The notes under the pieces: generated by a model
Database searches by the model: none
What the model was told of the DNA's origin: nothing
The model's input: only the letters and a program-made list of their open reading frames with translations
Translations under genes and position numbers: made by a program
Shown: in pieces, positions 1 through 39,883 of the stretch
Position numbering within the stretch: position 1 is the stretch's first letter
Layout of the letters: each line of letters starts with the position of its first letter
Assembly: GCA_000004985.1 (NCBI GenBank)
Contig: GG738868.1
Source of the DNA: Naegleria gruberi
Lineage: Eukaryota
Direction: 5' to 3' (one strand)
Length of the DNA: 64,000 nucleotides

Positions 1-65
1 GCTTGTTGCAAAGTTTCATAGTTGCATGAGTTCCATAATCAAATATTCAAAAAATAATTGCTTAC

Positions 66-2586
66 CTTGTGAAGACAGAAGGAAACACTTGATATTCTTT
101 TTTTGATTAAAACTGTCTACAAGACTTAATCGTTCTTGGTATTTTGTTACACTGCCATCAATTCTATTATATTTGATATTCATACTCTTAAGAATGACGC
201 CAATAATATCCAACATTCTTGTATATTGAGAAAATATTAGAACCTTGTGTCCATCATCAATACTCTTCTCTACGAGCTGCTTTATCATTTGGGCTTTGGT
301 ACTTTTGGCCAAAATGTTTTCTATAGGCTCCTCTCTAATTCTTTTCTTGATCATTTCTTCTTGGGCTTGTCTTAATTTTCTTTGTAGAGCTCGCTGTCTC
401 TTTTCATCTAAATCACTCATATCAAGAGTCATGGATGGCAATGCAGCCTCACTTAATAAATTATCTTCACTGTCATCAATGAAATCTTCTTCTGACTTTT
501 CCTCATTTTCATCTTGTTCCATCATTTCATTTTTAAGTTCCTCTTTCTTTTGTTTCAGTAATTCATCATAACCTGTGCACAACAAGGTATGATCACAAAT
601 CTGTTTCAAAATAATAATACCGACAAGAGGATTCAAAGTTCTGTTCAAAACTTGTTTGACTTGATCACTTAAAAGATAATCCTTGTACCAATTAATTTGG
701 TCCTCAGTAAGACTACACCAAACCACCAAATCATTCTTCTGGCCAATTTTGGCTGTAGTCGATTGATCCTCATTCTTGTACAATTGATTATCGATTGATA
801 ATACTGATTGTTTGGTTCGCATCATCATGTAGGGTTTGATTGTTTCTCGAAGGGAATCTGCTGCGTTATTTCCCATTAATTTTTCGAAAGGTGTAGCATC
901 TCTTTTTGTAGAGTGGTTGATAGGAATTGTGTACGATTCATTGAATTCTCTTTCAGAACCTAGCAATGTTTCTCCAAATATCCAAGAATAAAGAGCATAA
1001 AGCTCTGCAAGCCGATTCATTATCGGAGTGCCAGTAAGAGCAAATCTAGAGTGTGATGGTAATGTTTGCAGAGCCATAGAACATTTGGCATCTCTATTCT
1101 TAATTTTGTGAGCCTCATCTAATACAATTGAATCCAGTAGTAAATCATCAGAGAACTGTTCCTTTAAAAAGTCCACATGATTTGAAATGGTTTGATATGT
1201 TGAGATCATTACAGCTCCTCCATTATTTGCGTATCTATTGAACTGATTGACTAGACTCATCCTCTTCTTATTTCCTGATTTGTTACCTCCAACTTGGTGA
1301 AAGACTACAATACCCTGTAGACAATTATCTGTCCAAGCTAACAATTCTCTCTGCCAATTACCAATGACAGAATTAGGGCAAATAATTAAAACTCTAGAGG
1401 CTTTTTCAGAGAGGAAGAGCCCGTGGATAAGTGCAGATATTTGAATAGTTTTTCCTAATCCCATTTCGTCAGAAAGTATACCACCACGAAATCTTGTATC
1501 TAAGTGTCTTTCTGCCAACCATTTCAAACCAATTTGTTGATGATGGTATAGTTTTTCAAAGATTGTGGCTGATGTCACAAATGATACAATATCGTCATCT
1601 ACTGGAAGCACATAATGATCATTGACTACATCATATGACCATCCATTTTCAGAGCTCTTTAATTGATCTGCACTGACAGGGACACGTTTCTTCTTTTTTG
1701 TCTTTTTTGACTTGAATTCTACCTCACTCAACTCTGAATCAGAGTCAATTACCTCTTGATCATCCGACTCCTCATTCAATACTATTTCCTCTTCTACCAA
1801 TCCTTCCAAATATTCATCATCGTCATCTTCTGATAACTCTTGTTCGTATTCTTCCTCTTCTTCTGGTTCTTTCTTAGTGGTTTTACCAGTTGTTTTCGCC
1901 TCTTCCTCTTCCTCTTCTGAGAGCTCATATTCCTCCTCTTCTTCTGACTCTTCTTTCTTTTGTTTTTTATATCTTGGTGCATATTCTTCTTCGTCTGATG
2001 AGATAATGATTGAATCTGAAAGAAATGAATTGTTAGGCTCTTTTTTTTTGGGTTGTGGGATTTTCACTTCGTTATCATCACTTTCACTCAAATCTCCTTT
2101 AGGATTTGAAACTTTTTGTGTGAAAAGGTTTCGGTTCTTTCTTCTCATTGGTACATTGTTAACAATAGTTTCATTACTTGGAGTAGGGTTTGGTTTTAAA
2201 GGTGCCACAACTGAATTATTACGAGACTGCCTTGTTGGATATTTCTTAACTCTCTCATCCTCTTCATCATCTGATGATTCACTATCTTTCCCACTACTAG
2301 ATTGGGAATAGTTAATAACAATTTTTGTACCAACCAATGAAATGTCAGATTCTTCTTCTGAGGACTCCTCTGAGGAGGATGATAGTTCATTTTCTCTCAC
2401 CGATGACCAAGCCACTCTCCTTGTCCTAGTAGTTGATTTTGAATTTAGGCTCTTGTTGTGGAATGAGGTTTTTTCTTTTATCGGATCTTGTATTTTTGTA
2501 CTAGTGTTAGATAAATATGATGACGATCGTGTTATTCTCCTCTTTAATTCCATTTGTGGGTGTGATGTTTTATTGTTCGTTGGCAT
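66..2586 (-). CDS. SNF2-family DNA-dependent ATPase, ERCC6/Rad26-like (3' end outside window)
   Basis: Minus-strand ORF with ATG at 2586-2584. Motif I LSDEMGLGKTIQ, DEAH box LDEAHKIKN, helicase-C region GHKVLIFSQYTRMLDII...KCFLLSSQ. Acidic and Ser-rich N-terminal ~330 aa. The last real codons ...FLLSSQ(G) are followed on the minus strand by GTAAGC (plus 61-66), so the gene splices into an exon left of position 1. The ORF-track tail GKQLFFEYLIMELMQL is intron read-through. Confidence 0.75.
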
Positions 2587-2673
2587 GTTTAATAAATTAA
2601 TAAATTAAATATTTAACTAGCTGCACTGTTGCGTGTTGTGAGCTTTTTTTTTTGAGTTTTTAAATTTATAATT

Positions 2674-2685
2674 TTGGCGCCAAAC
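2674..2685. promoter_or_regulatory. Palindromic E2F-type site TTTGGCGCCAAA, 88 bp upstream of the SNF2 ATPase start codon
   Basis: Exact 12-bp palindrome matching the classical E2F/DP consensus TTTSSCGC. Related TGGCGCCA-core palindromes recur at 27256-27265 and 35371-35386 in two other promoters. Confidence 0.4.
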
Positions 2686-12370: not shown

Positions 12371-12488
12371 GACTACGGCCATATCACGATGAATGCACCT
12401 CATCCCTCCGATTTGAGAAGTTAAGCATCGTCGAGCCACATCAGTACTGAGGTTGGAGACAACTTGGGAACCTGTGGTGCTGTAGTCT
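12371..12488 (+). rRNA. 5S ribosomal RNA gene, dispersed single copy
   Basis: GACTACGGCCATATCACG...GAAGTTAAGC...AGTACTGAGGTTGGAGACAACTTGGGAACCTGTGGTGCTGTAGTC matches eukaryotic 5S throughout. Helix I pairs 5' GACTACGG with 3' CTGTAGTC. Followed directly by a TTTTCTTTTTT Pol III terminator. TATAAATA box about 50 bp upstream. Confidence 0.85.
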
Positions 12489-12659: not shown

Positions 12660-14882
12660 TTACTGTTTATTCAAAGTGAGGGAACAATAATCAGAAAGCT
12701 TTCTCATTCCATACAAGTTAGCATAATCAAGTAAGGAATTCTTAACAGGAGGAGATTTGATAGCAGAAATCATTAATAGGTCGTAACAGTACTTGATAAT
12801 CATTTCAGATATCTTTAAATCTTTGCATTCGACCATCTCATAAAATGTATCCTTTTCATTATTCTTATTTTTGAATAATTCCTCAAAGAAATGACTGTTG
12901 GAGGATAGAACAGTCTTGTGGCAATAGAATTTCTCCTTTCCAATAATTATGGTAACATCACTCGACGTTTTATCATTGAAAAGAGACGATAGATTCTTCT
13001 TTTCGCTCGCATTCTCTTGGATGTGGATATTTGGAGTTGTTCTCTCACTAATTTTGTAAGCAATTAGAGTTATATGTTTAAGAATGTTGGAATGTTGAAG
13101 AATTTGAGGTGAATCTCTCAAAAAACTAGCTGCCATGCAAATGCAATACTCAAACAATTGATTGAGGATTATATTATCAGGCAGTATTTCAATATATTGC
13201 TCTATCTTTTCCATCATAAAGTGAATATTTTCTTGACAACAAGTTTTCTTAATCTTTTTTACAAGTGACTTTTTCATTTCTATAAATTCACATCCTTGAA
13301 ATAATCCTAAAATTGACAAGATATCTATTGGATCGTAATTGTCTTGCCAATTTTTGACAGGTTCATAAATTATATCATCGATTAAATATTGTACAATTTC
13401 ATGTTGAGTTGTGCTCATCTTCTTCAGAATGTCACATTTCAACACTGATTCATAAAATTGGGGTGAAGCCATCTTGATGAGATAGCTCACTCCCTGAATA
13501 TTAGTATTATCCACACGATCCCAATAATACTTTTTCATTCTTCCACCTGAATTCAGATATTTGGTAGTTGAAATCTTTCTAATATAATTATTTCCTCCAT
13601 CGACCACATAGACATCTCCAGTTTCATTATCAATTGCAATATCTGATGGATTATTGAATTTAGCCATTCTAACTGGACCATCCTGATAACCCTCCTCGGT
13701 TGTTCCAGCAATAGTTACCAAAGTTCTATCCCTATTAATCTTACAAATTCTATTATTGTAAATGTCAGTAAATAGAATTTCACCTTCTTGACTGATGGCA
13801 ATTCCAGATGGACCATTCAACATGACATCTAAGGCATCCATTTGATCTCCATTAAATCCCTTCTCTCCTGTTCCTGCAATAGTGGTGATTATTCCACAAG
13901 TTGATATCTTTCGAATAACATTATTACCCGAATCTGAAAAATAGACATCCCCTCTCTGATTCACTGCAATTCCAGTTGGACAACGAATTCTAGCATAAAA
14001 TGCAAACCCACCATCTCCATCATACCCCTTCTCTCCAAAACCAGCCACGGTGTGAATCAATCCATTCCTTAGAGAAACCCTTCTAATTCTATTATTGTGA
14101 TAATCTGAAATGAAAAGTTCCTGTTCTCTCTCATCAATGGCAATTCCTGTTGGAAAGTACAAGTCAGCATGAATGGCTGGTATTCCATCTCCATTGTAAC
14201 CTTCTCTGCCAGTTCCTGCAATAGTTGAAATACTTCCATCCACAGCAGAAACCTTACGAATTCTATGATTGTGTCTATCAGCAATGTATAAATCACCATT
14301 CTCACATCTGGCAATTCTTGTTGGATAGCTCAACTTGGATACAGTGGCTACACAGCCATCTCTATTAAATCCTCTCTCTCCACAACCAGCAATGGTTGTA
14401 ATAATGCCTGATTTGATTCTTCTAATCTTGTGATTTCCATAATCTGAAACAAGTAATTCCCTCTCACCATTTGGTGTCCTTTCTCCCAATGCAATACCAG
14501 CTGGCGAATTGAATGGTGTCAAATGACTCGATGATTCACTATCTGAACCATAACCTTCATGGTCTATTCCTGAAATTGTACTCACATTCAATTCTGTATT
14601 AGTGTGTTCGTATTCATCAGTGATGTCATCATTAATAGCCAATGAGGAGTTGTTGACATTATTTGTTAAAATAGACAATCCTGATGATGGTGCTAATGTT
14701 CTAAATGTGGCAGCTCGAGCAAATAGTGAAGTCATTATGTTCTTTGTGTGGAAGTGAGAATAGGGTATTGTGTTTTTTTTTTTGATGTTGAATTCAATCA
14801 CTTCCAATGCCTGATCGAAGTCGATTTGTTTATTGATTGGCGCCAAAAAGGTGTTGAACACAAGAACATGAATCATTTTCAT
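12660..14882 (-). CDS. NHL-repeat beta-propeller protein with C-terminal BTB/POZ domain
   Basis: 740-aa ORF. At least six NHL-type repeats (..YGNHKIRRI, ..RHNHRIRKV, ..YHNNRIRRV, ..GNNVIRKI, ..YNNRICKI, ..GNNYIRKI), then a BTB signature SDVTIIIGKEKFYCHKTVLSSNSHFFEELF. Confidence 0.65.
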   Translation of the reverse strand: MKMIHVLVFNTFLAPINKQIDFDQALEVIEFNIKKKNTIPYSHFHTKNIMTSLFARAATFRTLAPSSGLSILTNNVNNSSLAINDDITDEYEHTNTELNVSTISGIDHEGYGSDSESSSHLTPFNSPAGIALGERTPNGERELLVSDYGNHKIRRIKSGIITTIAGCGERGFNRDGCVATVSKLSYPTRIARCENGDLYIADRHNHRIRKVSAVDGSISTIAGTGREGYNGDGIPAIHADLYFPTGIAIDEREQELFISDYHNNRIRRVSLRNGLIHTVAGFGEKGYDGDGGFAFYARIRCPTGIAVNQRGDVYFSDSGNNVIRKISTCGIITTIAGTGEKGFNGDQMDALDVMLNGPSGIAISQEGEILFTDIYNNRICKINRDRTLVTIAGTTEEGYQDGPVRMAKFNNPSDIAIDNETGDVYVVDGGNNYIRKISTTKYLNSGGRMKKYYWDRVDNTNIQGVSYLIKMASPQFYESVLKCDILKKMSTTQHEIVQYLIDDIIYEPVKNWQDNYDPIDILSILGLFQGCEFIEMKKSLVKKIKKTCCQENIHFMMEKIEQYIEILPDNIILNQLFEYCICMAASFLRDSPQILQHSNILKHITLIAYKISERTTPNIHIQENASEKKNLSSLFNDKTSSDVTIIIGKEKFYCHKTVLSSNSHFFEELFKNKNNEKDTFYEMVECKDLKISEMIIKYCYDLLMISAIKSPPVKNSLLDYANLYGMRKLSDYCSLTLNKQ

Positions 14883-25144: not shown

Positions 25145-27143
25145 TTACTCACTGATAGCAATATATCTATCTCCCATATCATCACCATCCTCATCATCCT
25201 CATCATTAACTTGCACATCCCACTCATTATCAGCTGGTTGTGTATCTACAATAATTGGAAGTTCCAACAATCTGTTTCTCATAGATTTGCTAAGATAACA
25301 ACGATTCATATCTAGAACCTCAAGTCCCATAAAATCTGTTGTCAAACCTCCTTCTAACTTGTCAATAAATTTTGAAACTCCCTTATCTGATAATGTTCCT
25401 AAGGAAATATCAATAATTTTCACTCTCTTTGAAATTGAGCTATCGAAAATATCACCACAAATCTTATCAATAGACTCATAGTTTCTCAAACCCAAATATT
25501 CCAATGATGGGAAGATGCCATTCTCTTTTGGACTTAATAATTTTTCCTTTAGGAGTTCTGGTTGAAAGTCAGCTCCTTGATTGCTTGTTCCCAAGAAAAG
25601 CTCTAAGTGTGCTAATTTTGGCAAATAAGCTGTGAATAAATTACGTAAGAAAACCTCACTCAATCCTGCGGAAATAAAAGTGATTGATCTCAAATTGTGA
25701 TGAGAGAAATTGGCAGAGAGAGCAAGTTGGATTGACCCTTTTGACATCCAAAAATTTAATTTTGGCATGGCATTCAAAACTGGTGTAATATCATCAATGC
25801 AAATCCAAGAGACTTCAGCATCACTTTGATCGATATCTAAATAGTAGATACTTTTGATATTATTCAAAATTTCACTATTTTTGACGATCCAGTTTGAATA
25901 TGTCTTTGGAGGAGTATCCATTGAATCTTCAGTATAACGACCAAAGTTGATTTCATCAAAGCTTTCAATATGTTGCTTGAGTAATCTCAATTGCTTTTTA
26001 AGGCCTCCCTTAAATGTTGGACCATTATTTTCTCCAGCATTGTCTTCATCAAAAGAATGACTGAAATTTTCACCATTCGTAATCTTGGCAGTTCTTAATG
26101 AGGAAAGTAAATTTTGATCGTAGGCATATCTAAACTTGATTGATTCCAATAAACTCAAGGTAGATGTGAATTCTTCCTTCTTTGCATTAGGATAGAATTG
26201 GAGAGCCTTTTCAACAGAAATTGATTTTCTGTTAACCATTTCCTTAAACTTTTCAAAATTTAAGGAGTATCTCTGTAATTTGTCTTCACTAATATTCACA
26301 GCAACATTTGCTTCCTGTTGTTGTTCTCCTTCAGTTGGCACATCGACAGGTCTATTATCTGAGTATTGCTCATCATGGAGAAGAGAAAAGAATTTGTATG
26401 GTTCTGACACTTTTCTTGTTGATCTAATGTAATTATTCATTGTTTGAATGAGGAAAGTAATGGTTGACTCATTATTTTCATTAGTAATCATATCATTGAA
26501 ACGTTTACAAACTCTTGACAAGAGTAATAGTTCATCAATGGTTACATATTTGAAAATTGAAAATAACAAATCATCTAAAAGAGGAAAATTGGTAAATTTA
26601 ACAATATTCACCACCTCACTCTCATCAATTTTTCTCTTTTTAGCGAGAGGTTGAAAGTCTAAATCATCTTGACCATCATCAGCTTCATCGTCATCATCTT
26701 CTTCTTCCTCTTCTTCATCTTCATTATCAAATGAATACTTGGTAGCAGGTTGAAGCTCACCCAATTTAACAGAATCCCAAATAAAATCCTCCTTCACAAT
26801 GATTTTCTCCTTTTCCTTAGCGGCTGAAACTTTTGTTGTTTCCTCCTCAAATTCCTTTTCTATCAACACATCATATCACCATAATCATCATCAAAATATT
26901 ATCAAATTATTAATAAATTGTTATCATTATAGTGCGCATCATGGATCAAAGTATTATTATTCAATTAATTATCATCATCATCAATAAATTACCTGTTGTA
27001 ATCAAGTGAGTGACTGCCTTGGTAATGGAAGCAGCAGTTTTACCACCATACTTTTTAATTTCATTTTCAACTTCTTTCCGTCCCTTGCTTAGGGTACCAG
27101 AGATGCAAAATACCAATGAATTGAAAAGTTTCTTGTTGGACAT
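25145..27143 (-). CDS. BRCT-domain / F-box-like / LRR protein, 2 exons
   Basis: Exon 1 (27143-26993) encodes a BRCT N-terminus LFNSLVFCISGTLSKGRKEVENEIKKYGGK...VTHLITT. A 133-nt intron (GTAATT at 26992 ... TAG at 26860) joins in frame (ACA G + AA AAG = T-E-K). Exon 2 (26859-25145) has an acidic tract, an F-box-like LLDDLLFSIFKYVTIDELLLLSRVCKRFNDMI and C-terminal leucine-rich repeats. Confidence 0.5.
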
Positions 27144-27255
27144 TTTTTTGTTTCTTTCTAATTAGAAAGCTCTTCTCAGATTATCTTTGCATGGAAGGGT
27201 ATAATAATAATTGTAAATTCGGAGATTGGTTCCTCCACCAATTTCTGGAAAAAAA

Positions 27256-27265
27256 TTTGGCGCCA
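27256..27265. promoter_or_regulatory. E2F-type TTTGGCGCCA element, with CCAAT box (ATTGG) 9 bp downstream
   Basis: AAATTTGGCGCCATAAATT is 113 bp upstream of the BRCT gene ATG (minus strand) and 136 bp upstream of the divergent F-box gene at 27401. Confidence 0.35.
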
Positions 27266-27400
27266 TAAATTCTATTGGCCAATTCAACGGAGTTAATGAA
27301 GCAATCCTTACTAAACCAGATTCAAATTATTGAACTTTAGAGTCCAATACCACTCAACATTCGAAAGAACTTACAAAGTTTCAAAAAGAAGCAGAAAAAA

Positions 27401-29913
27401 ATGCTGAATGTTCTTCCTCCCGAAAACATTCATCAAATTTTCAGCTATTTAGATTATTTTCATGATGTTTTTCGGCATCGAAAATTAGCAGTCCCCGATT
27501 TTAATATTATTCACGAATGGACCACTGATGATTTTAGTGCTACAATGGATTTGGAATATTCGGAAGACTTGTTAGATAACAACACTTCATGGGAACCTCT
27601 CTTTCTTACATGTAAATCATTTTATGAAGCCTTTGAACTGTTTCAGCCTTCAGAAATTAAAATACAAATGGTGAATGGAGAGAAAAAGAATTGGGCAAGA
27701 TTTTCAATTGATAGGGATTATTTGCAACTAGTGCGGAGTCTTAAAATAATTCCTATTCATGATAACAAGCAGTGCACAGAGGTGTGAGATTACAAGATAG
27801 GAATTATGTGGAGAAGGCATTGGAAAGGATTATGAAAAGGTATGAAAATGTATTTGATCGAGTTGAATATGTCAACTGTTTTGCACCTTTGGGGAGGAAT
27901 TATTGGACTAAGAGTGGAGTGAATTATAATTTGAAAAAGATTTTTAGAAATGTGAAATATCTAGTTTCAAATTATAGTTTAGCCCAAACTACTATCTCAA
28001 GTTTTCTTAATAGATCATTTTTTATTGAAACTGATCATATTGAACTCAATCACTACAATTCTATTTATTACACAGAGGAAAGGGAAATTGAGCATTTGAG
28101 TTTGGCTCAAAAATACCTTGGTAAACGATCATTTCACATAGAGATATTTCTTGCCAATTCAATATTTTATGAACGTTTTGATACTTGTAAATATATTATC
28201 AAAAATTTCAATATTGACATTGGATACTTTCAACATTTTTGGAATACTGTCTTTTCGAGCTTTATCAATATTCATGACAAGCATTTAGATATTTTACGTT
28301 TAATTTATATGAAATACAGATCATTTAGGATTTTTATTGCAAACATGAACAGCTTGAAACAGTTGAAAATGCTTGAAAAACATCAATTTATTAACTTTGA
28401 TCTAAAAAGATGTTTGAACATTAGTTTAATCAAAGATTTATACTCTAGTGATATTGTTATGTCAAAATTCAGCAAAAAGTACAACATTAATTTTAACAAA
28501 ATTGGAAAGTATGGTTTTTCATTGTTGAGCTTGGATGGAATTGACAGTTTTTATTCTTGTAAATGGGGCAGTCCTGATGTTTTTGGTGTGACACCTTTTA
28601 TGCACAACTTTACCAAAGATATTTCACAAACTGTACAGCACATTATGATGAAGGATAATTTTGGAAATAATTTTTTACACTACTTGTTTTCGAATGATCA
28701 AAACAGAGGTCGATCTTATTTAGTAACATATTCGGACATTCGATTTGCTAAAAAAATTCCTAAAGACGTGTTACTTAAATTGGAACAAGAAGAGAATGAT
28801 ACAGGATTCACACCAGCAGAAATAGGTATTGCCAATGGGTGGAATATGTTCCAGTTTCAACCTTTACCCTCAAAAATATTCCGTTACAAAAGAATTGAAA
28901 TGTTAAATGATAAGTTATCTCGTCCATTTGCACTATTAGATGGACTTGAGGTGAATATGGCTATACTAATGGCTGTAGGTTCTGGAAACAAACATCCACA
29001 TTTGGATTATACTATATATCAGGATATCAATTATAGAGATGTAAATGGAAAGCACTTAATTCATTATTTTACTGAGTATGATACCAGTAAAATCTACAAT
29101 GCCACACAAATTAGATCATGTCAGCAAATATTACAGACACCAGACCAAAATGGAACCATTCTGTTGCAGACATGCAATAATTGGTATGATCATTTATTAT
29201 ATGCAACTACTTGCTATTGGAAAGGTTCTCCTACTATCAACATTTCTGGTTACTTTGATAATTTAGGATTTAACAGGATTATGTATGGCATGTTAAAATT
29301 CACTTCTACTACTTTCAAATATCTCATTTCAGAATCTATTGTACTTGGATTTGATTACTCTAATGAAAATTATCCAAGACTATTCCATATTACCTTTCAA
29401 AATAAGGATGATAATATTCACTTTGAAATTGACAGTGGATTAATTCCAAGAATAACAGGAGGTTTTCAATGGTATGACGGAGAGGAAGGAGATGAATTTT
29501 CACACTTTGTAATCAGATTGTGTATTCAACAATTCTTGAAAGACAACCATTATGCCTTTCAGTCGGTGGTCAGTTGCTTGGTTGCAAGAGGATTGAAATT
29601 TGATGTTGTGAAAAATTCCAGAGGAAAGACAGCACTTGATTTACTGAACGAATTTAAAGAAAATAATCCTTCAATTGACTTGGGAAGTATTTGCAAACAG
29701 GTAACCAAAGGATCCACTAAAAAATCACAAGCGCTGGTTGAGTTTAAAATCAAACATACCAAATGCCCAGAGGAGGTAATTATTTCCCAAACAAATACTT
29801 CATTAGTGGTGAAGAATAGTTTTCTTTTATATTACCACGTTTCTATCAAAAGGAGTCTTTACTTTGCACAAAAAGAAATGAGCACCGATAACAAAGGAAT
29901 GATTTCTCAATAA
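27401..29913 (+). CDS. F-box protein, large C-terminal region in a different frame (pseudogene or sequence error)
   Basis: N-terminal F-box-like ENIHQIFSYLDYFHDVF (27401-27787). The 713-aa continuation (27772-29913) is in another frame. The only GT...AG pair that restores the frame is 29 nt long, shorter than any verified intron here. Confidence 0.45.
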
Positions 29914-31565: not shown

Positions 31566-31639
31566 TGCCTCCCTTGGGAATCGAACCCAAGACCTCTGTC
31601 TTACTAGGACAGCGCTACTGCCAACTGAGCTAGGAAGGC
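31566..31639 (-). tRNA. tRNA-Thr (anticodon AGU)
   Basis: Minus-strand GCCTTCCTAGCTCAGTTGGCAGTAGCGCTGTCCTAGTAAGACAGAGGTCTTGGGTTCGATTCCCAAGGGAGGCA folds as a cloverleaf. 7-bp acceptor stem with one G-U, anticodon stem CTGTC/GACAG, loop CTAGTAA giving AGT. T-stem TTGGG/CCCAA, T-loop TTCGATT, U8, G18G19, discriminator A, no encoded CCA. A TTCTTTT terminator follows. Confidence 0.85.
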
Positions 31640-31699: not shown

Positions 31700-33041
31700 T
31701 TAATAATCCTCGTCCGTCCTATTGTTCTCTACTCTTTGTGCACATCTTAGTTTGGCACTTCTACTCCTCACATTGAATTCAACTTCTGCATCATCAGGTA
31801 TGATTGTTCCTTTTGTAATCTTTTTAAAGGAATCTTGGTTCTCTTTCATGAAATCTTTTGTAATACGATCTTCTAATGAATGATAGCTCACCACAACCAA
31901 TCTTCCTGTTCCAATCTTTAAAATATCTTTGGATGCATAGAGAGCATTCTGTAAAGCACTCAACTCATCATTCACAAAAATTCTAATAGCTTGGAATGTC
32001 TTTGTGGCAGGGTGAATTCTCTTCTTTTTTCTTTCATGGAATGGTGTTATTTTTTCAATTAAATTTGCCAATTCAAGGGTGGTCTCAAAAGGTTTTACAT
32101 TATTTCTATAATCTACGATAGCTTTAGCAATACGATATGCCTTGTCATCCTCTCCAAATTTTGTAATCATTATTCTCAAATCGAGTTCACTCATATTATT
32201 CACTACATCTCTAGCTGTTGGACATTCATCATCCAATGGGTTCATTCTCATATCTTGAATTAAGGTTTTAGTTAGAATCAACATATCAAAACATACCAAG
32301 TGGACCTTCTCTAAGGAAGGAGAAACCTCGATGCCCTTGATCCAATTGCATTGAAGAAACTCCCAAATCAAACACTATTCCATCAATCACATTACTTGTA
32401 TCTGATTTTAATTGTGGCACTATTTTTTCCTGAACCACTTTCTTAATTTCTCTAAAATTGACACAATGCACTTCCAATCTCTCCTTTCCAAATTCTTCAT
32501 GTATCAACTTTTCATTCTCCTTAATGGTAGGATTATTGTAATAATCAGTATCAATTCCAATAACTTTACATCCTGGATAAGCTCTCAAAATCTCTCTCGT
32601 GTATCCACCAGCTCCAAAAGTTGCATCAATGAATAGCTTTTTCCCTCCACTGCTACTACTACTTGCACTACGGTTAGTGATCATCTTTTTAGAATGCTTT
32701 GATTTATCCAAATTCTTTCCCTCCAGAAGAGCACAACACTGCCTAACCAATACAGGCACATGGCTCTTATAATTAGAATCATCACTTTTATAATTTTCCA
32801 AAATATTATTATTATTATTTGTATCATTATTAGTATTTCCATTAAATTCCAATGAGTCTTCGGAAGAATTTACTGATTTTATCTTCTTGTTCATTAACTT
32901 CTTAGAATAGGAACAATAATTTACAGCAGGAGACTTTCGGATCATCATTAAAGAAAATGATGCCACCACCGAACAATAATAATTTAAAACTCCCTTCCTA
33001 GCACCCTCGCCACCAATCATCATCATCGTTGATGAAAACAT
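31700..33041 (-). CDS. 16S/12S rRNA (cytosine-N4)-methyltransferase RsmH/MraW family (METTL15-like, probably mitochondrial), 2 exons
   Basis: Exons 33041-32297 and 32253-31700. The 43-nt intron is GTATGT...TCTAACT...CAAG. The junction reproduces the conserved GFSFLREGPL-DMRMNP. Other RsmH motifs: IDATFGAGGYT, FDLGVSSMQLD, HPATKTFQAIRIFVNDEL, VVSYHSLEDRITK. N-terminus resembles a presequence. Confidence 0.8.
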
Positions 33042-33417
33042 TTTTTTAATTTGTATTATTTTCTCAAATTACTACTTATTAATTACTTGAATAATTCCAC
33101 AAATTCATTCTTTCCATTGTTCTCTTGTTTGTCTACCACAGCCATTGACAATTCTTAATAGGATATTTGAAGAAGTACTTCTTAGACAAAGAAAGACCTT
33201 TTGTTTATATGAAAGCAAAAACATCCAACCAGCTCCGTGAAGTTGTTGGCCTTCAACAATCTCATTTGGTACCCATCCAAATGTAAAATGGTTTCTGTTT
33301 CTACTTTGACACAACCACCTTCATGTGCTCAAAAGACCTTTCAACTGTCAGCAAAGAAGAAAAAAATTAACGACACATCTTATTACCTCGGACAACAACA
33401 ATAGCACATCAATAAGA

Positions 33418-35284
33418 ATGCCAACATTTGTTCGTCGTCTGGTCAGTAAAAACAAGAAGAGACTCCAGGAGGATAATTTTGATCTCGATCTTAGTGAGTA
33501 TTATTATTCATATATTCGAATAATGGATTATTTTAACTGTTTTTGTTGTTATTGATGAATAATATTAATATTCAGCCTATATTACCGATAATGTTATTGC
33601 TATGGTATGTGATCAATTGGTTCTTTTTCTAATTTTCATTTCTTTTCGATTGTTCTAAACCTTTCGAATGTGTTGTCAATCAATCGTTAATATTTTTGAA
33701 CTTTGAATTATAATCATCTCTTTACTGCTTGCTAATAACAATTATTCATCATGATGTTTGATTTTACTTTCTCAACATTATTCTCATCACAAAATAATAC
33801 ATCATATTCGAAACCTTTCAAATAGGGTTTTCCAAGTGAAGGAGTAGAATCAATCTATAGAAATCCACGTGATGAAGTTGTTGATTTTCTCTCTACAAAA
33901 CACGGAAACAAATATAAGGTTTATAATTTGTGTTCCGAAAGAGATTACAATGATGAAATATTCGAAGGGAGAGTGGGTATGTATAATATTGTGAAATTCA
34001 ATGTTTTTTGATCTTTTTTAGCTCGTTTCCCATTTGATGATCACCAATCTCCATTATTTGATTCGGTTTTGGAATTTTGTGTCGATGTTCATGAATTTTT
34101 GAAGGATGGAAAGAATAATGCTGCTGTTGTTCACTGTAAGGCAGGAAAGGGAAGGTATGTAACTGTTTCTATTATATCTTGGAGAGTTCTAAATAACTTG
34201 TGTGTTCGTGATTACTATGTGGACTTGGTATCTGATACATATTTGTGGTGTGGTGGAATATTAATCTGAATTTTTTGATATCATGAACAATAGAACTGGA
34301 GTAATGATTTGTTGTTATTTATTATTCAGTCAAACTTGTAAGACAGCTCTTGATTCTTTGCATTTCTATGGTGATAAGAGAACTAAGGATGCAAAAGGTG
34401 TGACTATTCCATCTCAGAGAAGATATTGCTACTATTTTGAACAATATTTGAGAAATCAATTTGCATTGAGAGGATCTGTTAAATTACATCGTGTTACATT
34501 GAGAGAATACACAAAATCCAAGTATTACATTACAATTAAGAATTTAAAGAGAGAGGAAGTTTTCAGTTCAAAACAAGATCAAAATGTAACTTCAAGTGAT
34601 GATAGAGTTGTTATTGATCTTAAGGAACCAATTGAATTAACTGGTGATTTCAAGGTTGTTTGTGTAAAGAATGGAGTGAATGTATTGAAATCTAATAATT
34701 TGTTACACTGTTGGTTGAATACAAGATTTATTACAAACTTGGTCAAGAATACAAGTCCTGGAAATGGTATGGGTGTAAATGCTTATCATAATTCCCTCGA
34801 TGAAAAGATTCCACTCGTGAAAGCTATCAGTTTGGGATTACATGCCAAGGCAGAAGAAAAAATTGCACCAGAAAATGATGAACGACTTAAGAATGGTAAA
34901 TTTGTAACAGTTTCATTGACAAAGGATGAATTGGATGGACCACATTCTGACAAAAACCACAAAACATTCTCTGAAGATTTCCAAGTTGACTTGACTTTTG
35001 AAATTTGTAACACTGATAAGGTTGAAGATGATTCCTACTTGCTAGGATTAATACCAAAAGAGTTCTTAACAGACCAATCAAAGAGACTTTCAGTTGGTGC
35101 CTCAACAAGAAGACAATCAGCAGTAACCAGAGGTTTAATCATTGACAGTCATGATGATGATTCTGTCGATATTATTGATGAAACTGCAACTACACCTCCA
35201 AGCACTTCATCCTCAGTGGTTGTGTCTAATGAGCAACAAACTCAAAATGAATCACAACAGCAACAGGGCACACTTTTCCAATAA
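33418..35284 (+). CDS. PTEN: PTEN phosphatase (phosphatase plus C2), 5 exons
   Basis: Exons 33418-33493, 33576-33604, 33826-33976, 34022-34154, 34294-35284. Donors GTGAGT/GTATGT, all phases consistent. Collinear with PTEN: [59 protein letters not shown], catalytic HCKAGKGR-TGVMICCYLL across the last intron, YGDKRTKDAKGVTIPSQRRY. C2-like tail. Confidence 0.85.
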
Positions 35285-35370
35285 TCATCTTCCTCCTCTT
35301 CTGTTTATCAAACAACACACTTATTTTTTGTAAAGTACTTGAAATTTTGTTTGCCAATGTCTGGTAGAAC

Positions 35371-35386
35371 AAAATGGCGCCATTTT
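35371..35386. promoter_or_regulatory. Perfect 16-bp palindrome AAAATGGCGCCATTTT (TGGCGCCA core) with CCAAT box 15 bp upstream
   Basis: 81 bp upstream of the PIAS/Siz ATG (35467). Third copy of the TGGCGCCA-core element in this window. Confidence 0.35.
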
Positions 35387-35466
35387 GACCAACAATTTAA
35401 AATATTTTCGTTTTAAAAAAATAAAAAAAAAACGAACGGCTTTGCTCGTCTCATCCACACAACAAA

Positions 35467-37283
35467 ATGCCCAAAGAACCATCACATAGTCTAGTAGTAT
35501 CGGATGCCAAGTTAAACGAGCTATTAAACGATACGGTGTTTGTGGGTTCTGATCGTGAAGCTCAAAAGAATAGAATCAAGAATGGAGGTAGGTTCTTTCT
35601 ATTAGTATTTTCGGAAAATATAATCAACTTGTTTTAAAAGATTTTAATTACTTTAAAGTGGACCAACTTAAAGCAATGATCAAGTTTTTGAGAACAGAAT
35701 GTAATCGTTACGATTTATCACTTCAAGGAAAAAAAGCCAACCTTGTAGATAAACTAAAGGATGCCTTCTTCAATTCTTCACCTTCGGGGGGTAGTGGTAG
35801 CAGTGGCTCTGGATCATCATCTGGATCTTCTAAACAAACAGCCAAAAGGACGTCATTCACCACAATATCCAATGCTATCAAATTACAATCAGCCACTGAT
35901 GAAGAACAGAGACTTTTAAGAGAATTTAATTTGGACAAAACATTGAAAGGAAGAATAGATCCGCACCAACAGGTAGAGCAATACTTGTATGTCAAAGTTT
36001 TCCATCAGGGGTTAGCATCATTCTCATTTGATTTGGATTTATCTGAAGAGGAATTTCAAAAGTTGACGTCACAAAATTATCAAATTAATATCCACTATTT
36101 TACTCACGATATGGTACCTAGAAACTGGAATAATGAACACCCAATTTTCTTTAATGGACACAAGTTGGATAACCCTGCCTTGAACAGAAAAATAGCTAAA
36201 GGAATGAAAAAGGAAGTACTGATTGTGTCTACTCCTTTTGTTATTAAAGGAGAGTACGCAAAAGTAGGTGTAAATCGAGTAGACATCAAGGCTGGCCCTT
36301 ATAGTACTATGGATGGAAGACTAGTTGTAAATTTTTTGAAAATGCAAAAGAGTGAGGAGTTGGTTCAATCAATAGTATCTAAATCAACTGTAAAACATAA
36401 CCTAGATTTGGACAATGAAAAAGTCTTGGATATTCTATTGGAAAACAAGATAAAGTATGTACCAGTAACATCAACAAATGAGTCAATAATAACCTTTGAT
36501 GACACCAGTTCAAAGACAATAACACCAATAACAGAGCAAGAGAAAAAGAGTATTGAGACACTGTTAAAAATTGTGGGAACAGAGACACCAATAAGCAAGC
36601 ACGACGATATGATTGATGAATTGGAAGGATGTGATGAAATAGTACCACTCAAAGACCCTCTTTCACTTTGCAGAATAGAGCTTCCAGCAAAAGGAAAATT
36701 TTGTGTGCACAAATCTTGTTTTGATTTGGTTGGATATTTGGATTTTGGAGCGAGTTCGAAAACTTATAATTGCCCAAGATGTGATAAGCCTCTTCCTTTC
36801 GATCAGCTTATTATTGATCCTTTAATGCAAAAAATATTGTCGAGTGTCAGTCAAGATGTGGACAAAGTTCTTGTGAGGCATGATGGTAGTTTTACAGTTT
36901 GTGACGATGCTCCAAAGAAGAAAATTGCAACACCAGCTAAACCACCAATAATAGCTGACATTATTGATGATGATGATGAAGATGATGTCATTCCTCATAG
37001 CGCTTCTCCACCATTCATGATTAGTACTCCTCCACCTCCAAATTCTATATTGGCAACAAATACAGCCTCAACTCCTCAAACTCTTTATCCACCTGTTTCT
37101 CTTGCTGATCTTTCCAGGTTTTTCTCTCCTTCCCTTACCCCTACAAGCAACTCACGTCCAAGTTTAACACCAAGTACACCAACACTCCAAAAAGGTACTC
37201 CTACTACTACTAGCAACCCATCTTCAAACACGAATGTCAATAGTTATGGTCTATCTGTTGATGATGCTATAGAGATTGATTAG
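35467..37283 (+). CDS. SUMO E3 ligase of the Siz/PIAS family (SAP, PINIT-like, SP-RING/MIZ), 2 exons
   Basis: Exon 1 35467-35587 (MPKEPSHSL...), a 71-nt intron GTAGGT...AAAG, exon 2 35659-37283. SAP motif LKAMIKFLRTECNRYDLSLQGKKANLVDKLKDAF. SP-RING CRIELPAKGKFCVHKSCFDL..YNCPRCDKPLPFDQLIIDPLM. Ser/Pro/Thr-rich C-terminus. Confidence 0.75.
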
Positions 37284-37972
37284 AGGAATTTTATCATTAT
37301 TGAACTGTTTAAATATTGGTAGTGATAATAGTAATTCCAAAATATGATTCCCTTAAACGAAGGATTGGATCCTTATTAATGGTACCATTACTAGTCGATT
37401 AAAAAAACTTCACAGGTTTGAATAATAATATGGATTATCCATCTTATTTCCTTATTCAATAACGTAATCCACTTGTCAAAATAGTTGTACAGCTTTCATA
37501 AAGTTTTTTGCCCGCTAAATGTGCTCACCCAATGAAAAGCTTTGATGAACAGTCATGGACAACCAATTCTTTCCAACGATTAATAATCCCTCAATCTTTC
37601 AATTTGATCGAACCAATATTCAACTAATAATAACATTGTACACGTAAGCAATATTATCAGAAAGTGAGCGTATTAATCATAATTGTCCTCATCCTCTTAC
37701 AGGGTCAAAAGTCAATAATCAACAACCAACACATTCCACTACCATTAAATGTAAAACAAAGTTATTATGAAATTAAACTATCAATGAATTACCAAACCAC
37801 CAAATTCTGTTGAGATTTTGCTCCACGCTCTCCTTTGTTGGGTGCCTCCCAGGTTTGCAAGATCAATTTCATCACCCAAACAAATAACACCAACGAAAAA
37901 AATACAACACGATTATTGTGTAAATTTTTGATTACCACCCATTCTATCATCACACACAAACCGAAAAATTCA

Positions 37973-39148
37973 ATGTCCTCTCCAGCCGAATACACTCCAA
38001 CTGAATCTGAAAAGAAGTTCTTGGAGGATCAAACCGATGTTGAAACATACAAAACACAAGAAGGAACTTATAGCGATGATCCAGAGGATGAATACTTGAA
38101 AGTTAAGGACAGGGATGATTCCTACAATTTGATTTATGAATTTTTAAAACAATTAACTCCTCAAACTGAGTTGTGGAGAATTTCCGTTCCAACCTACATT
38201 TTGCAACCACTCTCTCTTCTTGAGAAAATTTCTCACTACTCTTCTCCTAATAATACTATTGAAAAGATTAATGAAGAAGAATCAGCTGAAAAGAGATTTA
38301 TTTCTATTTTGGCTTGGGTTATCAGTAATTGGAGAACCATCCCAAGAGCCGGTATGCAACAAAGTAAGCCATTCAATCCAGTTTTGGGTGAAATTTTCAA
38401 GTGTGAATGGAATCACGGTGCTGCAGATGATAATACCAAGTTCTTGGGAGAACAAGTTTCTCACCATCCACCTGTTTCTGCATTCTGTTGTCACAATGAA
38501 AAGCGTCAATTCACATATACTGGTTATGTTTTCCCAGTTACTTCATTCTCATGGAACTCTGTAACAACCTTGATGGACGGTGAATTCAAGATTGATCTTG
38601 GTAAATTCAATGAAGAATATATTGTTAACCATCCTCCAGTCAGTGTTAGTAACGTTTTGTGGGGAAATACTGTTATTGAAATTTATGATTATCTCAAAAT
38701 TAAATGTCCACAAAGCGGATTCTATGCTGATATCTACTTTGATTACGGAAAGGATAACTACTTGAGTGGATACATTTATGATGCTGAAGGATACAAGAAG
38801 CATTGGATTGAAGGAAAGGTTAATCAATCTGTTCAAATTCAAAATTACTCAACAAGTGAAAAGTCAACCTTGTATGATGTTGCTACATTGACTCGTCCAA
38901 CTAAGATTATTAAGCCTGTTGCTGAACAAGAACCAAGAGAATCAAGAAGAAATTGGCACAAGGCAGTTCATGCTTTGAAGAATGAAAAATTCGAAGATGC
39001 TCAACTTGAAAAGCACATTGTTGAAGAAAGAGAAAGAGCTTTCAGAAAGGAAAGAGCTGAAGCTGGTTTAACTTGGACACCAAAATATTTCAAATTGGAA
39101 GGTGAAAAGAAATGGGTTATCAAGGATAAGAATGTATTGACACAATAA
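37973..39148 (+). CDS. Oxysterol-binding protein-related protein (short ORP, ORD domain only)
   Basis: OSBP fingerprint EQVSHHPPVSAF. Collinear ORD domain. First ATG at 37973; the track start 37835 is non-ATG. Confidence 0.85.
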   Translation: MSSPAEYTPTESEKKFLEDQTDVETYKTQEGTYSDDPEDEYLKVKDRDDSYNLIYEFLKQLTPQTELWRISVPTYILQPLSLLEKISHYSSPNNTIEKINEEESAEKRFISILAWVISNWRTIPRAGMQQSKPFNPVLGEIFKCEWNHGAADDNTKFLGEQVSHHPPVSAFCCHNEKRQFTYTGYVFPVTSFSWNSVTTLMDGEFKIDLGKFNEEYIVNHPPVSVSNVLWGNTVIEIYDYLKIKCPQSGFYADIYFDYGKDNYLSGYIYDAEGYKKHWIEGKVNQSVQIQNYSTSEKSTLYDVATLTRPTKIIKPVAEQEPRESRRNWHKAVHALKNEKFEDAQLEKHIVEERERAFRKERAEAGLTWTPKYFKLEGEKKWVIKDKNVLTQ

Positions 39149-39244
39149 TTTTATCAATGCAAATTGTACAAATAATTTGTATCACATTTTCAAAATGTAA
39201 AATAGTAATTATAATTTACAGAAATAAATATAATTCGTTGTGAA

Positions 39245-39883
39245 TTATTTAATAGAAGCAAGTTGATCTCTAATCTTTGATAGACCTTTAAGCATTGTAG
39301 ATAAAGTTTCCTTATCCATTTCAAAATTAACTTGTTCAGTCTTTGGCATGACACCAACAACTTTGGATGGATTTTGTACATTCAATTGGATAACAACACT
39401 TGGAGCAGACATTTTTTGGATTACATTTGATGCAGTGCTCAGATCTACTCTCCATTTCATATCTACTAATTTTGGTAAACCAATTTGTGTATTAATTGCT
39501 TGTTCCTTCCAAACATCATAAAATTTGAGAATTGTTCCTGCAACTAATTTCTTTAAATTATCGTGTGATGTGAATGAAGTATCATTATCTGTAAATAATT
39601 CTGATGTCAAAATTGCTTCAGGAGTATTTAATTGATGATATACACAATATTGAATAACATGAAGAACTGTGGATAATAATTCCTCAATCACATCATGATA
39701 ATTAACTTGTTGATTTTGCTGTAATTGTTCCGCAACCGATTCCACAAAATCAGAATTAAATCCGTCAAATCTAGTTTGATAAACTCTAACAAAAACCTGT
39801 TCCACAAAAACCTTTGATGGAGCTTGCAATAATAATAACAATGGTGTGAGTTTGATGGTTCTTGTATTGTTGAAATGTCTCAT
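39245..39883 (-). CDS. COMM-domain-containing protein (COMMD family)
   Basis: 212 aa. C-terminal COMM domain LVDMKWRVDLSTASNVIQKMSAPSVVIQLNV...VNFEMDKETLSTMLKGLSKIRDQL. Confidence 0.6.
   Translation of the reverse strand: MRHFNNTRTIKLTPLLLLLQAPSKVFVEQVFVRVYQTRFDGFNSDFVESVAEQLQQNQQVNYHDVIEELLSTVLHVIQYCVYHQLNTPEAILTSELFTDNDTSFTSHDNLKKLVAGTILKFYDVWKEQAINTQIGLPKLVDMKWRVDLSTASNVIQKMSAPSVVIQLNVQNPSKVVGVMPKTEQVNFEMDKETLSTMLKGLSKIRDQLASIK

What the first reader, a model, noticed from the sequence alone, without database searches (positions are those of the whole stretch)
2674..2685. Canonical palindromic E2F-type site recurring in three promoters of genome-maintenance genes
TTTGGCGCCAAA lies 88 bp upstream of the ERCC6/Rad26-like ATPase. 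Near-identical elements lie 113 bp upstream of the BRCT-domain gene (27256-27265, AAATTTGGCGCCATAAATT) and 81 bp upstream of the Siz/PIAS SUMO ligase (35371-35386, perfect 16-bp AAAATGGCGCCATTTT). The GGCGCC core was seen only at these three places while reading the 64 kb, and the latter two have a CCAAT box within 15 bp. This suggests an E2F/DP-like cell-cycle or DNA-damage regulon. It would be informative if the organism is a fungus, since Dikarya replaced E2F by SBF/MBF.
Basis: partly seen in the sequence, partly recalled or inferred. Interest (0 to 1): 0.5.

Follow-up and report, generated by a model that had tools for sequence, protein, structure and literature searches.

The report
E2F-type promoter sites in Naegleria gruberi
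A 12-base palindrome identical to the classic binding site of the cell-cycle regulator E2F sits about 80-135 bases upstream of four gene starts in this piece of the Naegleria gruberi genome; the amoeba has the E2F/DP/Rb proteins, so this is most likely ordinary, ancient cell-cycle wiring that has not been described in this lineage.

Summary
WWTGGCGCCAWW occurs four times in the 64 kb, not three (0.02 expected). The missed site is ATTGGCGCCAAA at 14836-14847. All four lie 83-134 bp upstream of annotated or evident start codons.

The window is Naegleria gruberi (Heterolobosea, Discoba), not a fungus, so the "Dikarya lost E2F" angle does not apply. N. gruberi encodes E2F, DP, an E2F7/8-type DEL and an Rb homologue. 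Its E2F recognition helix is identical to that of human E2F4 in the E2F4-DP2-DNA structure. Sites 1 and 2 equal the human E2F1 HT-SELEX motifs. TGGCGCCA is also the top "E2F" upstream motif reported in Cryptosporidium.

Support from relatives is mixed:
- The SNF2 gene, which is ERCC6L/PICH-like rather than Rad26, keeps a half-site at -94 in Willaertia.
- N. lovaniensis has AATGGCGCCAAA 59 bp upstream of its BUB3 orthologue.
- The PIAS site is absent from three orthologous promoters.

The "genome-maintenance regulon" label is only partly supported, because the NHL-BTB and F-box genes have no known link to it.

Verdict: probable genuine E2F/DP sites, a new member of a known kind, of modest interest. 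Binding and cell-cycle regulation remain untested.

The parts
2673..2684 (.). Site 1: TTTGGCGCCAAA. Both halves match TTTSSCGC. It lies 87 bp upstream of the SNF2 gene's ATG.
   Evidence: the start codon is confirmed by the P0001 N-terminus
14836..14847 (.). It lies 101 bp upstream of the annotated ATG (14735) of the NHL+BTB gene. An ATTGG (CCAAT) box overlaps it, and another CCAAT lies at 14804-14808.
27256..27267 (.). Site 3: TTTGGCGCCATA, in a divergent promoter. It is 113 bp from ATG 27143(-) and 134 bp from ATG 27401(+). It is flanked by four CCAAT/ATTGG boxes at 27225-27229, 27238-27242 and 27274-27283.
35371..35386 (.). Site 4: the perfect 16-bp palindrome AAAATGGCGCCATTTT. It lies 81 bp upstream of ATG 35467 (83 bp from the 12-mer core). 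A CCAAT box at 35354-35358 lies 12 bp upstream of it.
16..2586 (-). 5' exon of the SNF2-family ATPase (P0001, 1068 aa), ERCC6L/PICH/CHR24-like. Candidate target of site 1.
   Evidence: Pfam SNF2-rel_dom and Helicase_C; 100% identical to an N. gruberi predicted protein, and best named homologues are ERCC6-like
12660..14735 (-). NHL-repeat + BTB/POZ gene (XP_002677205.1, NAEGRDRAFT_67621, 691 aa). Candidate target of site 2.
25145..27143 (-). BRCT gene. The BRCT domain is in exon 1 (26964-27143) and the F-box in the downstream ORF (25145-26869). Candidate target of site 3. Joining the two pieces into one gene is my inference.
27401..29913 (+). Divergently transcribed gene with an F-box-like N-terminus (MLNVLPPENIHQIFSYLD...). 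Alternative or additional target of site 3.
35467..37283 (+). SAP + MIZ/SP-RING (PIAS/Siz-type SUMO E3) gene, P0121 = NAEGRDRAFT_79767. Candidate target of site 4.

Best explanation
The four WWTGGCGCCAWW palindromes are binding sites for the Naegleria gruberi E2F/DP winged-helix factors, sitting in the proximal promoters of five candidate genes.

Proposed mechanism, by analogy with the E2F4-DP2-DNA structure: an E2F-DP heterodimer (NAEGRDRAFT_54558 + NAEGRDRAFT_50903), or the two-domain DEL/E2F7-8-type protein, places one RRXYD recognition helix on each half of the GGCGCC core, and the A/T flanks add affinity. The Rb homologue would make the sites repressive in non-cycling cells and permissive or activating at cell-cycle entry. 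Nearby CCAAT boxes may cooperate.

Shown here:
- the motif and its over-representation;
- its fixed position 83-134 bp upstream of start codons;
- the presence of E2F, DP, DEL and Rb, and conservation of the DNA-reading helix;
- the same motif at -59 of a BUB3 orthologue in a sister species.

Inferred, not shown:
- actual binding;
- which E2F family member binds;
- Rb dependence;
- cell-cycle timing of expression;
- whether the targets form one functional regulon.
For: 1. Motif identity. Sites 1 and 2 equal the human E2F1 HT-SELEX consensus strings TTTGGCGCCAAA and ATTGGCGCCAAA (PMC5449588). The general E2F consensus is GCGSSAAA, read by the RRXYD motif, which is invariant across eukaryotes (PMC4862756).

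2. Cognate factors.
- NgruE2F, NgruDP, NgruDEL and NgruRB are in the Medina et al. 2016 source data.
- The E2F and DP sequences are exact matches to N. gruberi XP_002668864.1 and XP_002674586.1.
- They carry the Pfam domains E2F_TDP + E2F_CC-MB and E2F_TDP + DP respectively.
- The E2F DNA-binding domain aligns to human E2F4 in 1CF7 at E = 7e-25, and the helix [24 protein letters not shown] is identical.

3. Statistics. There are 4 matches against 0.02-0.31 expected, and GGCGCC is the top all-G/C hexamer.

4. Position. All four lie 83-134 bp upstream of starts confirmed by NCBI models or evident exons. About 6% of the window lies in a comparable upstream zone.

5. No similarity extends beyond the motif, so this is not a repeat element.

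6. Relatives.
- The Willaertia magna SNF2 orthologue has AAAATGGCGCAAAT 94 bp upstream of its ATG. This is one of only two E2F-like hits in 23 kb of 24.5% GC DNA.
- N. lovaniensis has AATGGCGCCAAA 59 bp upstream of its BUB3 orthologue, which scores 233 bits and 38% identity to human BUB3.
- Pooled over 106 kb from relatives, 4 of 10 E2F-like hits fall in the -30 to -150 zone, which is 5.5% of the sequence (P = 1.5e-3).

7. Human ERCC6L/PICH and BUB3 are both listed as p53-DREAM (E2F/CHR pathway) targets (PMC5729532). ERCC6L is also among the DREAM/RB-repressed genes (PMC6753476).

8. In another AT-rich protist with E2F/DP, Cryptosporidium parvum, 5'-TGGCGCCA-3' is the most over-represented upstream motif and is read as E2F (PMC3734150).

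9. CCAAT boxes are enriched within 40 bp of the sites: 7 observed against 1.4 expected.
Against: - No binding or expression data exist for Naegleria.
- Site 4 is absent from the orthologous PTEN-PIAS intergenic regions of N. lovaniensis and two metagenomic Naegleria-like contigs. Synteny and the start codon are conserved there, so the comparison is valid.
- In N. lovaniensis the only E2F-like site near the SNF2 orthologue is 1.37 kb upstream of its annotated ATG.
- Only one of the five candidate targets is a recognised cell-cycle gene. No canonical S-phase target (MCM, PCNA, RNR) could be examined, because no further N. gruberi sequence was retrievable.
- The CCAAT enrichment is driven mostly by site 3 and was measured against random positions rather than other promoters.
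- The sample is four sites in 64 kb.
Confidence: 0.65

Rival explanations
1. The palindrome is a real cis-element, but it is read by a different Naegleria factor: an unrelated dimeric DNA-binding protein that happens to prefer TGGCGCCA. On this view the resemblance to E2F sites is coincidental.
For: - Palindromic 8-12-mers are typical of many homodimeric factors.
- The candidate targets are mostly not classic E2F targets. Four of the five encode ubiquitin/SUMO-ligase-type domains: F-box, F-box-like, BTB and SP-RING.
- Site 4 (AATGGCGCCATT) lacks the TTT of TTTSSCGC on both halves.
- Conservation in orthologous promoters is poor.
Against: - The match to E2F1 HT-SELEX strings is exact over 12 bp for two sites.
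- The E2F recognition helix is identical to the human one.
- The same motif precedes BUB3 in N. lovaniensis and the PICH-like gene in two genera. Both genes are in the human p53-DREAM (E2F/CHR pathway) target table.
- No alternative factor is known for this sequence.
Confidence: 0.15
2. The sequences can be bound by E2F but are largely neutral. They are young, lineage-specific occurrences in AT-rich promoters with little regulatory consequence, so there is no coherent regulon.
For: - The PIAS site is N. gruberi-specific among four sampled genomes.
- The functions of the flanking genes are heterogeneous.
- In Cryptosporidium the E2F motif is spread over promoters of many expression classes, and those authors caution that presence does not prove binding (PMC3734150).
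Against: - A 200-fold excess over expectation, in a CpG-depleted genome, is hard to reconcile with neutrality.
- So is the tight distance window to start codons.
- Positional retention at the SNF2 gene in Willaertia argues for selection at that site at least.
Confidence: 0.12
3. Chance or compositional artefact: four GGCGCC hexamers happen to fall in intergenic DNA.
For: The sample is small, one 64-kb window. The motif was picked after reading the sequence, so there is some multiple-testing inflation.
Against: - None of 100 dinucleotide shuffles reached 4 matches for the 6-, 8- or 12-mer patterns, against expectations of 0.31, 0.10 and 0.02.
- All four hexamers carry the same T..A flanks and A/T-rich shoulders.
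- All four sit 83-134 bp upstream of a start codon.
- The other seven all-G/C palindromic hexamers occur zero times.
Confidence: 0.03

Closest known systems
Canonical E2F/DP binding sites of animals and plants (TTTSSCGC; palindromic TTTGGCGCCAAA)
   Same: - The sequence is identical to the human E2F1 HT-SELEX consensus at sites 1 and 2.
- The GCGC core is flanked by T/A runs.
- The sites are promoter-proximal.
- Cognate E2F, DP, E2F7/8-type and Rb proteins are present, and the RRXYD helix is identical.
- A PICH/ERCC6L-like gene, and BUB3 in the sister species, are among the genes carrying the motif, as in the human p53-DREAM (E2F/CHR pathway) target table.
   Different: - The organism is a heterolobosean (Discoba), where no E2F site has been described in the literature I could search.
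- Binding, Rb dependence and cell-cycle timing are untested.
- Most flanking genes here are not classic S-phase targets.
Over-represented upstream 'E2F' motif 5'-TGGCGCCA-3' of Cryptosporidium parvum (Oberstaller et al. 2013, PMC3734150)
   Same: - The 8-mer palindrome is the same.
- The genome is likewise an AT-rich protist genome with short intergenic regions.
- The assignment to E2F/DP is likewise inferred from motif similarity and the presence of the factors.
   Different: - Cryptosporidium lacks Rb, and the motif there is spread across very many promoters and expression classes.
- Naegleria has Rb and DEL, and only about one promoter in ten in this window carries the motif.
Animal cell-cycle promoters combining E2F or CDE/CHR elements with NF-Y CCAAT boxes (DREAM targets)
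   Same: E2F-type sites have CCAAT boxes within about 10-40 bp at three of the four window sites and at N. lovaniensis BUB3.
   Different: - I did not check for NF-Y or DREAM (MuvB) components in Naegleria.
- The CCAAT enrichment rests on few sites.
- No CHR element was tested.
Fungal MBF/SBF elements (MCB ACGCGT, SCB CRCGAAA)
   Same: They perform the analogous G1/S promoter function and have a partly overlapping CGCG-type core (PMC4862756).
   Different: The sequences here do not match MCB or SCB. The organism is not a fungus, and SBF/MBF are restricted to fungi.

Membership tests
E2F/DP binding site (cis-element) | Sequence matches TTTSSCGC / GCGSSAAA, ideally as the palindromic TTTGGCGCCAAA | tested here: met
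   Site 1 matches on both strands. Sites 2 and 3 match on one strand, with a one-base deviation on the other. Site 4 is AATGGCGCCATT, with a perfect core but AAT in place of TTT. The E2F1 HT-SELEX strings are ATTGGCGCCAAA and TTTGGCGCCAAA.
E2F/DP binding site (cis-element) | The genome encodes E2F and DP proteins with the RRXYD DNA-recognition motif | tested here: met
   XP_002668864.1 (E2F_TDP + E2F_CC-MB) and XP_002674586.1 (E2F_TDP + DP). RRIYD and RRVYD are present. The helix is identical to human E2F4 in 1CF7. DEL and RB homologues are listed in PMC4862756 source data.
E2F/DP binding site (cis-element) | Located in proximal promoters near the transcription start | tested here: met
   The sites lie 83-134 bp upstream of start codons confirmed by NCBI protein N-termini or by an evident first exon. 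Transcription start sites themselves are unknown.
E2F/DP binding site (cis-element) | Over-represented relative to background | tested here: met
   4 matches against 0.02-0.31 expected, and 0 of 100 shuffles reached 4. In relatives, 4 of 10 hits fall in the -30 to -150 zone (P = 1.5e-3).
E2F/DP binding site (cis-element) | Associated with cell-cycle, replication or repair genes | tested here: inconclusive
   Fits: the ERCC6L/PICH-like helicase and BUB3 in N. lovaniensis. Loosely suggestive: the BRCT+F-box and PIAS genes. No known link: the NHL+BTB and F-box-like genes. No canonical S-phase gene was available to test.
E2F/DP binding site (cis-element) | Conserved in orthologous promoters | tested here: inconclusive
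   SNF2 gene: a half-site is retained at -94 in Willaertia, but in N. lovaniensis the only E2F-like site is 1.37 kb upstream. PIAS gene: the motif is absent in three relatives. The other two genes had no retrievable orthologues.
E2F/DP binding site (cis-element) | Physically bound by E2F-DP, with Rb-dependent, cell-cycle-regulated expression | not testable with these tools
   Needs EMSA, DAP-seq or ChIP, and expression time courses in Naegleria.
Fungal MCB/SCB (MBF/SBF) elements | ACGCGT or CRCGAAA core in a fungus that encodes SBF/MBF | tested here: not met
   The sites read TGGCGCCA. The organism is Naegleria gruberi, Discoba. SBF was not found outside Fungi (PMC4862756).
NFI-type palindrome | TTGGC-N5-GCCAA half-sites separated by 5 bp | tested here: not met
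   Here the TTGGC and GCCAA halves abut with no spacer (TTGGCGCCAA). I recalled the resemblance from memory and considered it only as a lead.

The most novel reading that the evidence does not exclude
The palindromic E2F code, with its CCAAT-box neighbourhood, is conserved in Discoba and already controls mitotic and genome-surveillance genes there (a PICH/ERCC6L-like helicase, BUB3). [quoted passage not shown] In Naegleria the regulon may additionally have recruited a set of ubiquitin/SUMO-ligase adaptors (F-box, BTB, SP-RING).
Probability: 0.35. Interest if true: 0.45.

Novelty: new member of a known kind. Interest (0 to 1): 0.3.

Why it matters
E2F/DP/Rb proteins are known to be ancestral to eukaryotes. 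Their cis-regulatory targets have been mapped almost only in animals and plants, with some work in a few other protists. Finding the canonical palindromic E2F site at a fixed promoter position in a heterolobosean, in front of PICH-like and BUB3 genes, gives a concrete, testable handle on cell-cycle transcription in Naegleria, a genus that includes the pathogen N. fowleri. It also adds a distant data point for how old the E2F target set is. It does not overturn anything: it is what one would predict from the presence of the factors.

Tried and rejected
1. Getting more N. gruberi genome to test canonical targets. The look-up of encoding contigs found no record for P0001 or for the flavoprotein ORF, nor for the N. 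fowleri orthologue P0003.

2. My last homologue search was a chimeric query: BRCT/F-box + NHL-BTB C-terminus + NgruRB + NgruDEL + NgruE2F. It returned nothing. As a result, orthologues of the BRCT and NHL-BTB genes and the promoters of E2F/RB/DEL genes could not be examined.

3. Metagenome scans. The BRCT/F-box protein gave no relatives. The SNF2 alignment gave 80 loci, but none above 33% identity over the full helicase region, so no heterolobosean orthologues and no useful promoters.

4. The relaxed pattern TTSSCGC adds only three non-palindromic hits (19196, 22683, 56701), which is about the chance level. I do not count them as sites.

5. Repeat or mobile-element explanation: aligning the flanks shows no similarity outside the motif.

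6. ncRNA overlap: the only RNA genes are a 5S rRNA and a tRNA-Thr, both elsewhere in the window.

7. Fungal SBF/MBF framing: rejected because the organism is Naegleria.

8. The N. lovaniensis upstream ORF (MPQGKTS...) as a possible missed first exon of the SNF2 orthologue. I examined it, but it would still leave the E2F-like site more than 1 kb away.

Full report
**Observation.**
- TTTGGCGCCAAA lies at 2673-2684, one base left of the stated 2674-2685.
- TTTGGCGCCA lies at 27256-27265.
- The perfect 16-bp palindrome AAAATGGCGCCATTTT lies at 35371-35386.

The statement that GGCGCC occurs only at these three places is wrong. There is a fourth copy at 14839-14844, inside GATTGGCGCCAAAAA.

All four share the extended form WWTGGCGCCAWW. 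Dinucleotide-preserving shuffles of the window give these expectations, each against 4 observed:

| Pattern | Expected | Observed |
|---|---|---|
| GGCGCC | 0.31 | 4 |
| TGGCGCCA | 0.10 | 4 |
| WWTGGCGCCAWW | 0.02 | 4 |

No shuffle reached 4. GGCGCC is the most frequent all-G/C hexamer in a window of 33.5% GC with CpG observed/expected 0.43. The other seven all-G/C palindromic hexamers are absent. Aligning 120 bp around each site shows no similarity beyond the motif, so this is not a dispersed repeat. None of the sites overlaps an RNA gene.

**Organism.** The ORF at 16-2586(-) is 100% identical to a predicted protein of Naegleria gruberi on a 427,589-bp contig. The PIAS-type and NHL-BTB genes also match N. 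gruberi proteins exactly. Naegleria is a heterolobosean in Discoba, not a fungus.

**Gene context.**
- Site 1 is 87 bp upstream of ATG 2586(-) of an SNF2 ATPase. That start equals the N-terminus of the NCBI model. The best named homologues of this protein are vertebrate ERCC6-like (ERCC6L/PICH) and plant CHR24, ahead of ERCC6/Rad26. The next gene to the right, a WD40 protein starting at 3507, is more than 800 bp away.
- Site 2 falls within the first codons of a 740-aa ORF. However, the deposited protein XP_002677205.1 (691 aa) starts at MTSLFARAATF, which is ATG 14735. The longer versions are not in the database. The site is therefore 101 bp upstream of an NHL-repeat + BTB gene.
- Site 3 lies in a divergent promoter. 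It is 113 bp from ATG 27143(-), where a BRCT-domain exon begins that continues into an F-box ORF. It is 134 bp from ATG 27401(+) of a gene with an F-box-like N-terminus.
- Site 4 is 83 bp upstream of ATG 35467(+) of a SAP + SP-RING (PIAS/Siz) gene. That start matches P0121.

In a crude automatic estimate, roughly 6% of the window lies 60-150 bp upstream of a long ATG-ORF, so four out of four in this zone is notable.

CCAAT/ATTGG boxes occur seven times within 40 bp of the sites, against 1.4 expected at random positions. Four of the seven belong to site 3, and the control was random positions rather than other promoters.

**Is it an E2F site?**
- The human E2F1 HT-SELEX consensus is given as ATTGGCGCCAAA / TTTGGCGCCAAA (PMC5449588). 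These are exactly sites 2 and 1.
- The family consensus GCGSSAAA is read by an RRXYD motif in the recognition helix that is invariant across eukaryotic E2F/DP proteins (PMC4862756).
- The source data of that paper contain N. gruberi E2F, DP, DEL (E2F7/8-type) and RB sequences.
- I confirmed that the E2F and DP sequences are exact matches to N. gruberi XP_002668864.1 and XP_002674586.1.
- They carry E2F_TDP + E2F_CC-MB and E2F_TDP + DP domains respectively.
- The E2F DNA-binding domain aligns to human E2F4 from the E2F4-DP2-DNA structure 1CF7 at E = 7e-25, with an identical recognition helix.

A direct precedent exists in another AT-rich protist: in Cryptosporidium parvum the most over-represented upstream motif is 'E2F (5'-TGGCGCCA-3')' (PMC3734150).

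**Evidence from relatives.** No more N. gruberi sequence could be fetched, so I used orthologous loci.
- SNF2 gene, Willaertia magna: the orthologue has AAAATGGCGCAAAT 94 bp upstream of its ATG. This is one of only two E2F-like hits in 23 kb of 24.5% GC DNA.
- SNF2 gene, N. lovaniensis: the only E2F-like site, TTTGCGCGCCAAG, is in the upstream intergenic region but 1.37 kb from the annotated start.
- PIAS gene: synteny (PTEN-PIAS-OSBP) and the start codon (MPKE...) are conserved in N. lovaniensis and two metagenomic Naegleria-like contigs, but none has any GGCGC-type element upstream. Site 4 is therefore lineage-specific.
- BUB3, found incidentally: N. lovaniensis carries a full palindrome AATGGCGCCAAA 59 bp upstream of a 337-aa WD40 gene. 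That protein is 38% identical over its whole length to human BUB3 (233 bits), against 153 bits to human RAE1. The human BUB3 sequence I used was verified as BUB3_HUMAN by exact look-up. The BUB3 promoter also has a CCAAT box 12 bp beyond the motif and an A-run between motif and ATG.
- Pooled: over 106 kb of annotated loci from relatives, 4 of 10 E2F-like hits lie in the -30 to -150 zone, which is 5.5% of the sequence (binomial P = 1.5e-3).
- Human comparison: ERCC6L/PICH and BUB3 are both in the p53-DREAM (E2F/CHR pathway) target table (PMC5729532). ERCC6L is also among 268 DREAM/RB-repressed genes (PMC6753476).

**Interpretation.** The best-supported reading is that these are genuine E2F/DP (or DEL) sites in proximal promoters. 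One winged-helix domain would sit on each half of the GGCGCC core, with the Rb homologue modulating the complex. What is shown:
- the sequence identity of the motif;
- its statistical excess;
- its position upstream of start codons;
- the presence and conservation of the factors;
- recurrence at two cell-division genes in the clade.

What is inferred:
- binding;
- which family member binds;
- Rb dependence;
- cell-cycle timing of expression.

The 'genome-maintenance regulon' label is only partly supported. One target is clearly of that kind (PICH-like), two are loosely so (BRCT+F-box, PIAS), and two have no known link (NHL-BTB, F-box-like). Four of the five encode ubiquitin/SUMO-ligase-type domains. 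This may be coincidence in a genome rich in such proteins.

Rival explanations and my estimates:
- A different factor reads the same palindrome (about 0.15).
- The sites are E2F-like but largely neutral and young (about 0.12). The PIAS result favours this; the excess and the positional constraint argue against it.
- Chance (about 0.03).

**Novelty.** My searches of the held literature found E2F/DP/Rb catalogued for Naegleria, but no description of E2F sites or any promoter motif in this genus. The finding is a new member of a well-known kind, predictable from the presence of the factors, and of modest interest.

**Dead ends.**
- A chimeric protein query consumed my last homologue search and returned nothing.
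- Two metagenome scans yielded no usable orthologues.
- The relaxed TTSSCGC pattern adds only chance-level hits.

Noticed in passing
window 2645-2654, 14773-14783, 35415-35432; L089 about 2420-2450: A run of 10 or more A on the coding strand lies between each E2F-like motif and its start codon at sites 1, 2 and 4, and also at N. lovaniensis BUB3. It may be a Naegleria core-promoter or 5'-UTR feature, or simply AT-rich spacer.
   Followed up: no
window 12371-12488 (+): A full-length 5S rRNA gene (Rfam RF00001, 97.6 bits) sits alone between protein-coding genes, just downstream of the NHL-BTB gene.
   Followed up: no
window 31566-31639 (-): A tRNA-Thr(AGT) gene lies next to a MraW/RsmH-type (Methyltransf_5) methyltransferase gene split over two ORFs (31700-33041).
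   Followed up: no
window 57004-58977 (+): A single 657-aa ORF combines a ubiquitin-conjugating (UQ_con) domain with an F-box. This E2 + F-box architecture is unusual.
   Followed up: no
window 59179-59712 (+): An ORF ends in a complete DYW-family deaminase domain (E = 1e-33). This is the domain of plant-type PPR RNA-editing factors.
   Followed up: no
window 12660-14735, 25145-27143, 27401-29913, 35467-37283: Four of the five genes flanking the motif encode ubiquitin/SUMO-ligase-type modules: BTB, F-box, F-box-like and SP-RING. This may be coincidence in a genome rich in such proteins.
   Followed up: partly
L089 (N. lovaniensis PYSW02000012.1) compared with window 31700-39883: The PTEN-PIAS-OSBP order is conserved. 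Between the MraW methyltransferase and PTEN, N. lovaniensis carries five extra genes (BUB3, TPT/EamA transporter, DnaJ, DUF8395, MOSC_N) that are absent at this position in N. gruberi. The N. lovaniensis PIAS orthologue is annotated as two adjacent genes (356 aa + 181 aa zf-MIZ), which is probably a split gene model.
   Followed up: partly
L089 5280-5295; L088 13438-13453: Further single E2F-type sites occur in N. lovaniensis promoters. TTTTTTGGCGCGATTC lies between divergent DnaJ and DUF8395 genes. GATTTGGCGCTAAAAA lies 57 bp upstream of a TPR gene.
   Followed up: partly
protein P0148 (ENA metagenome contig of 3,521 bp): A metagenomic protein falls in the same 90%-identity cluster as the N. 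gruberi NHL-BTB protein, so a very close relative of N. gruberi has been sampled. Its upstream region would be a good test of site 2, but I had no look-ups left.
   Followed up: no
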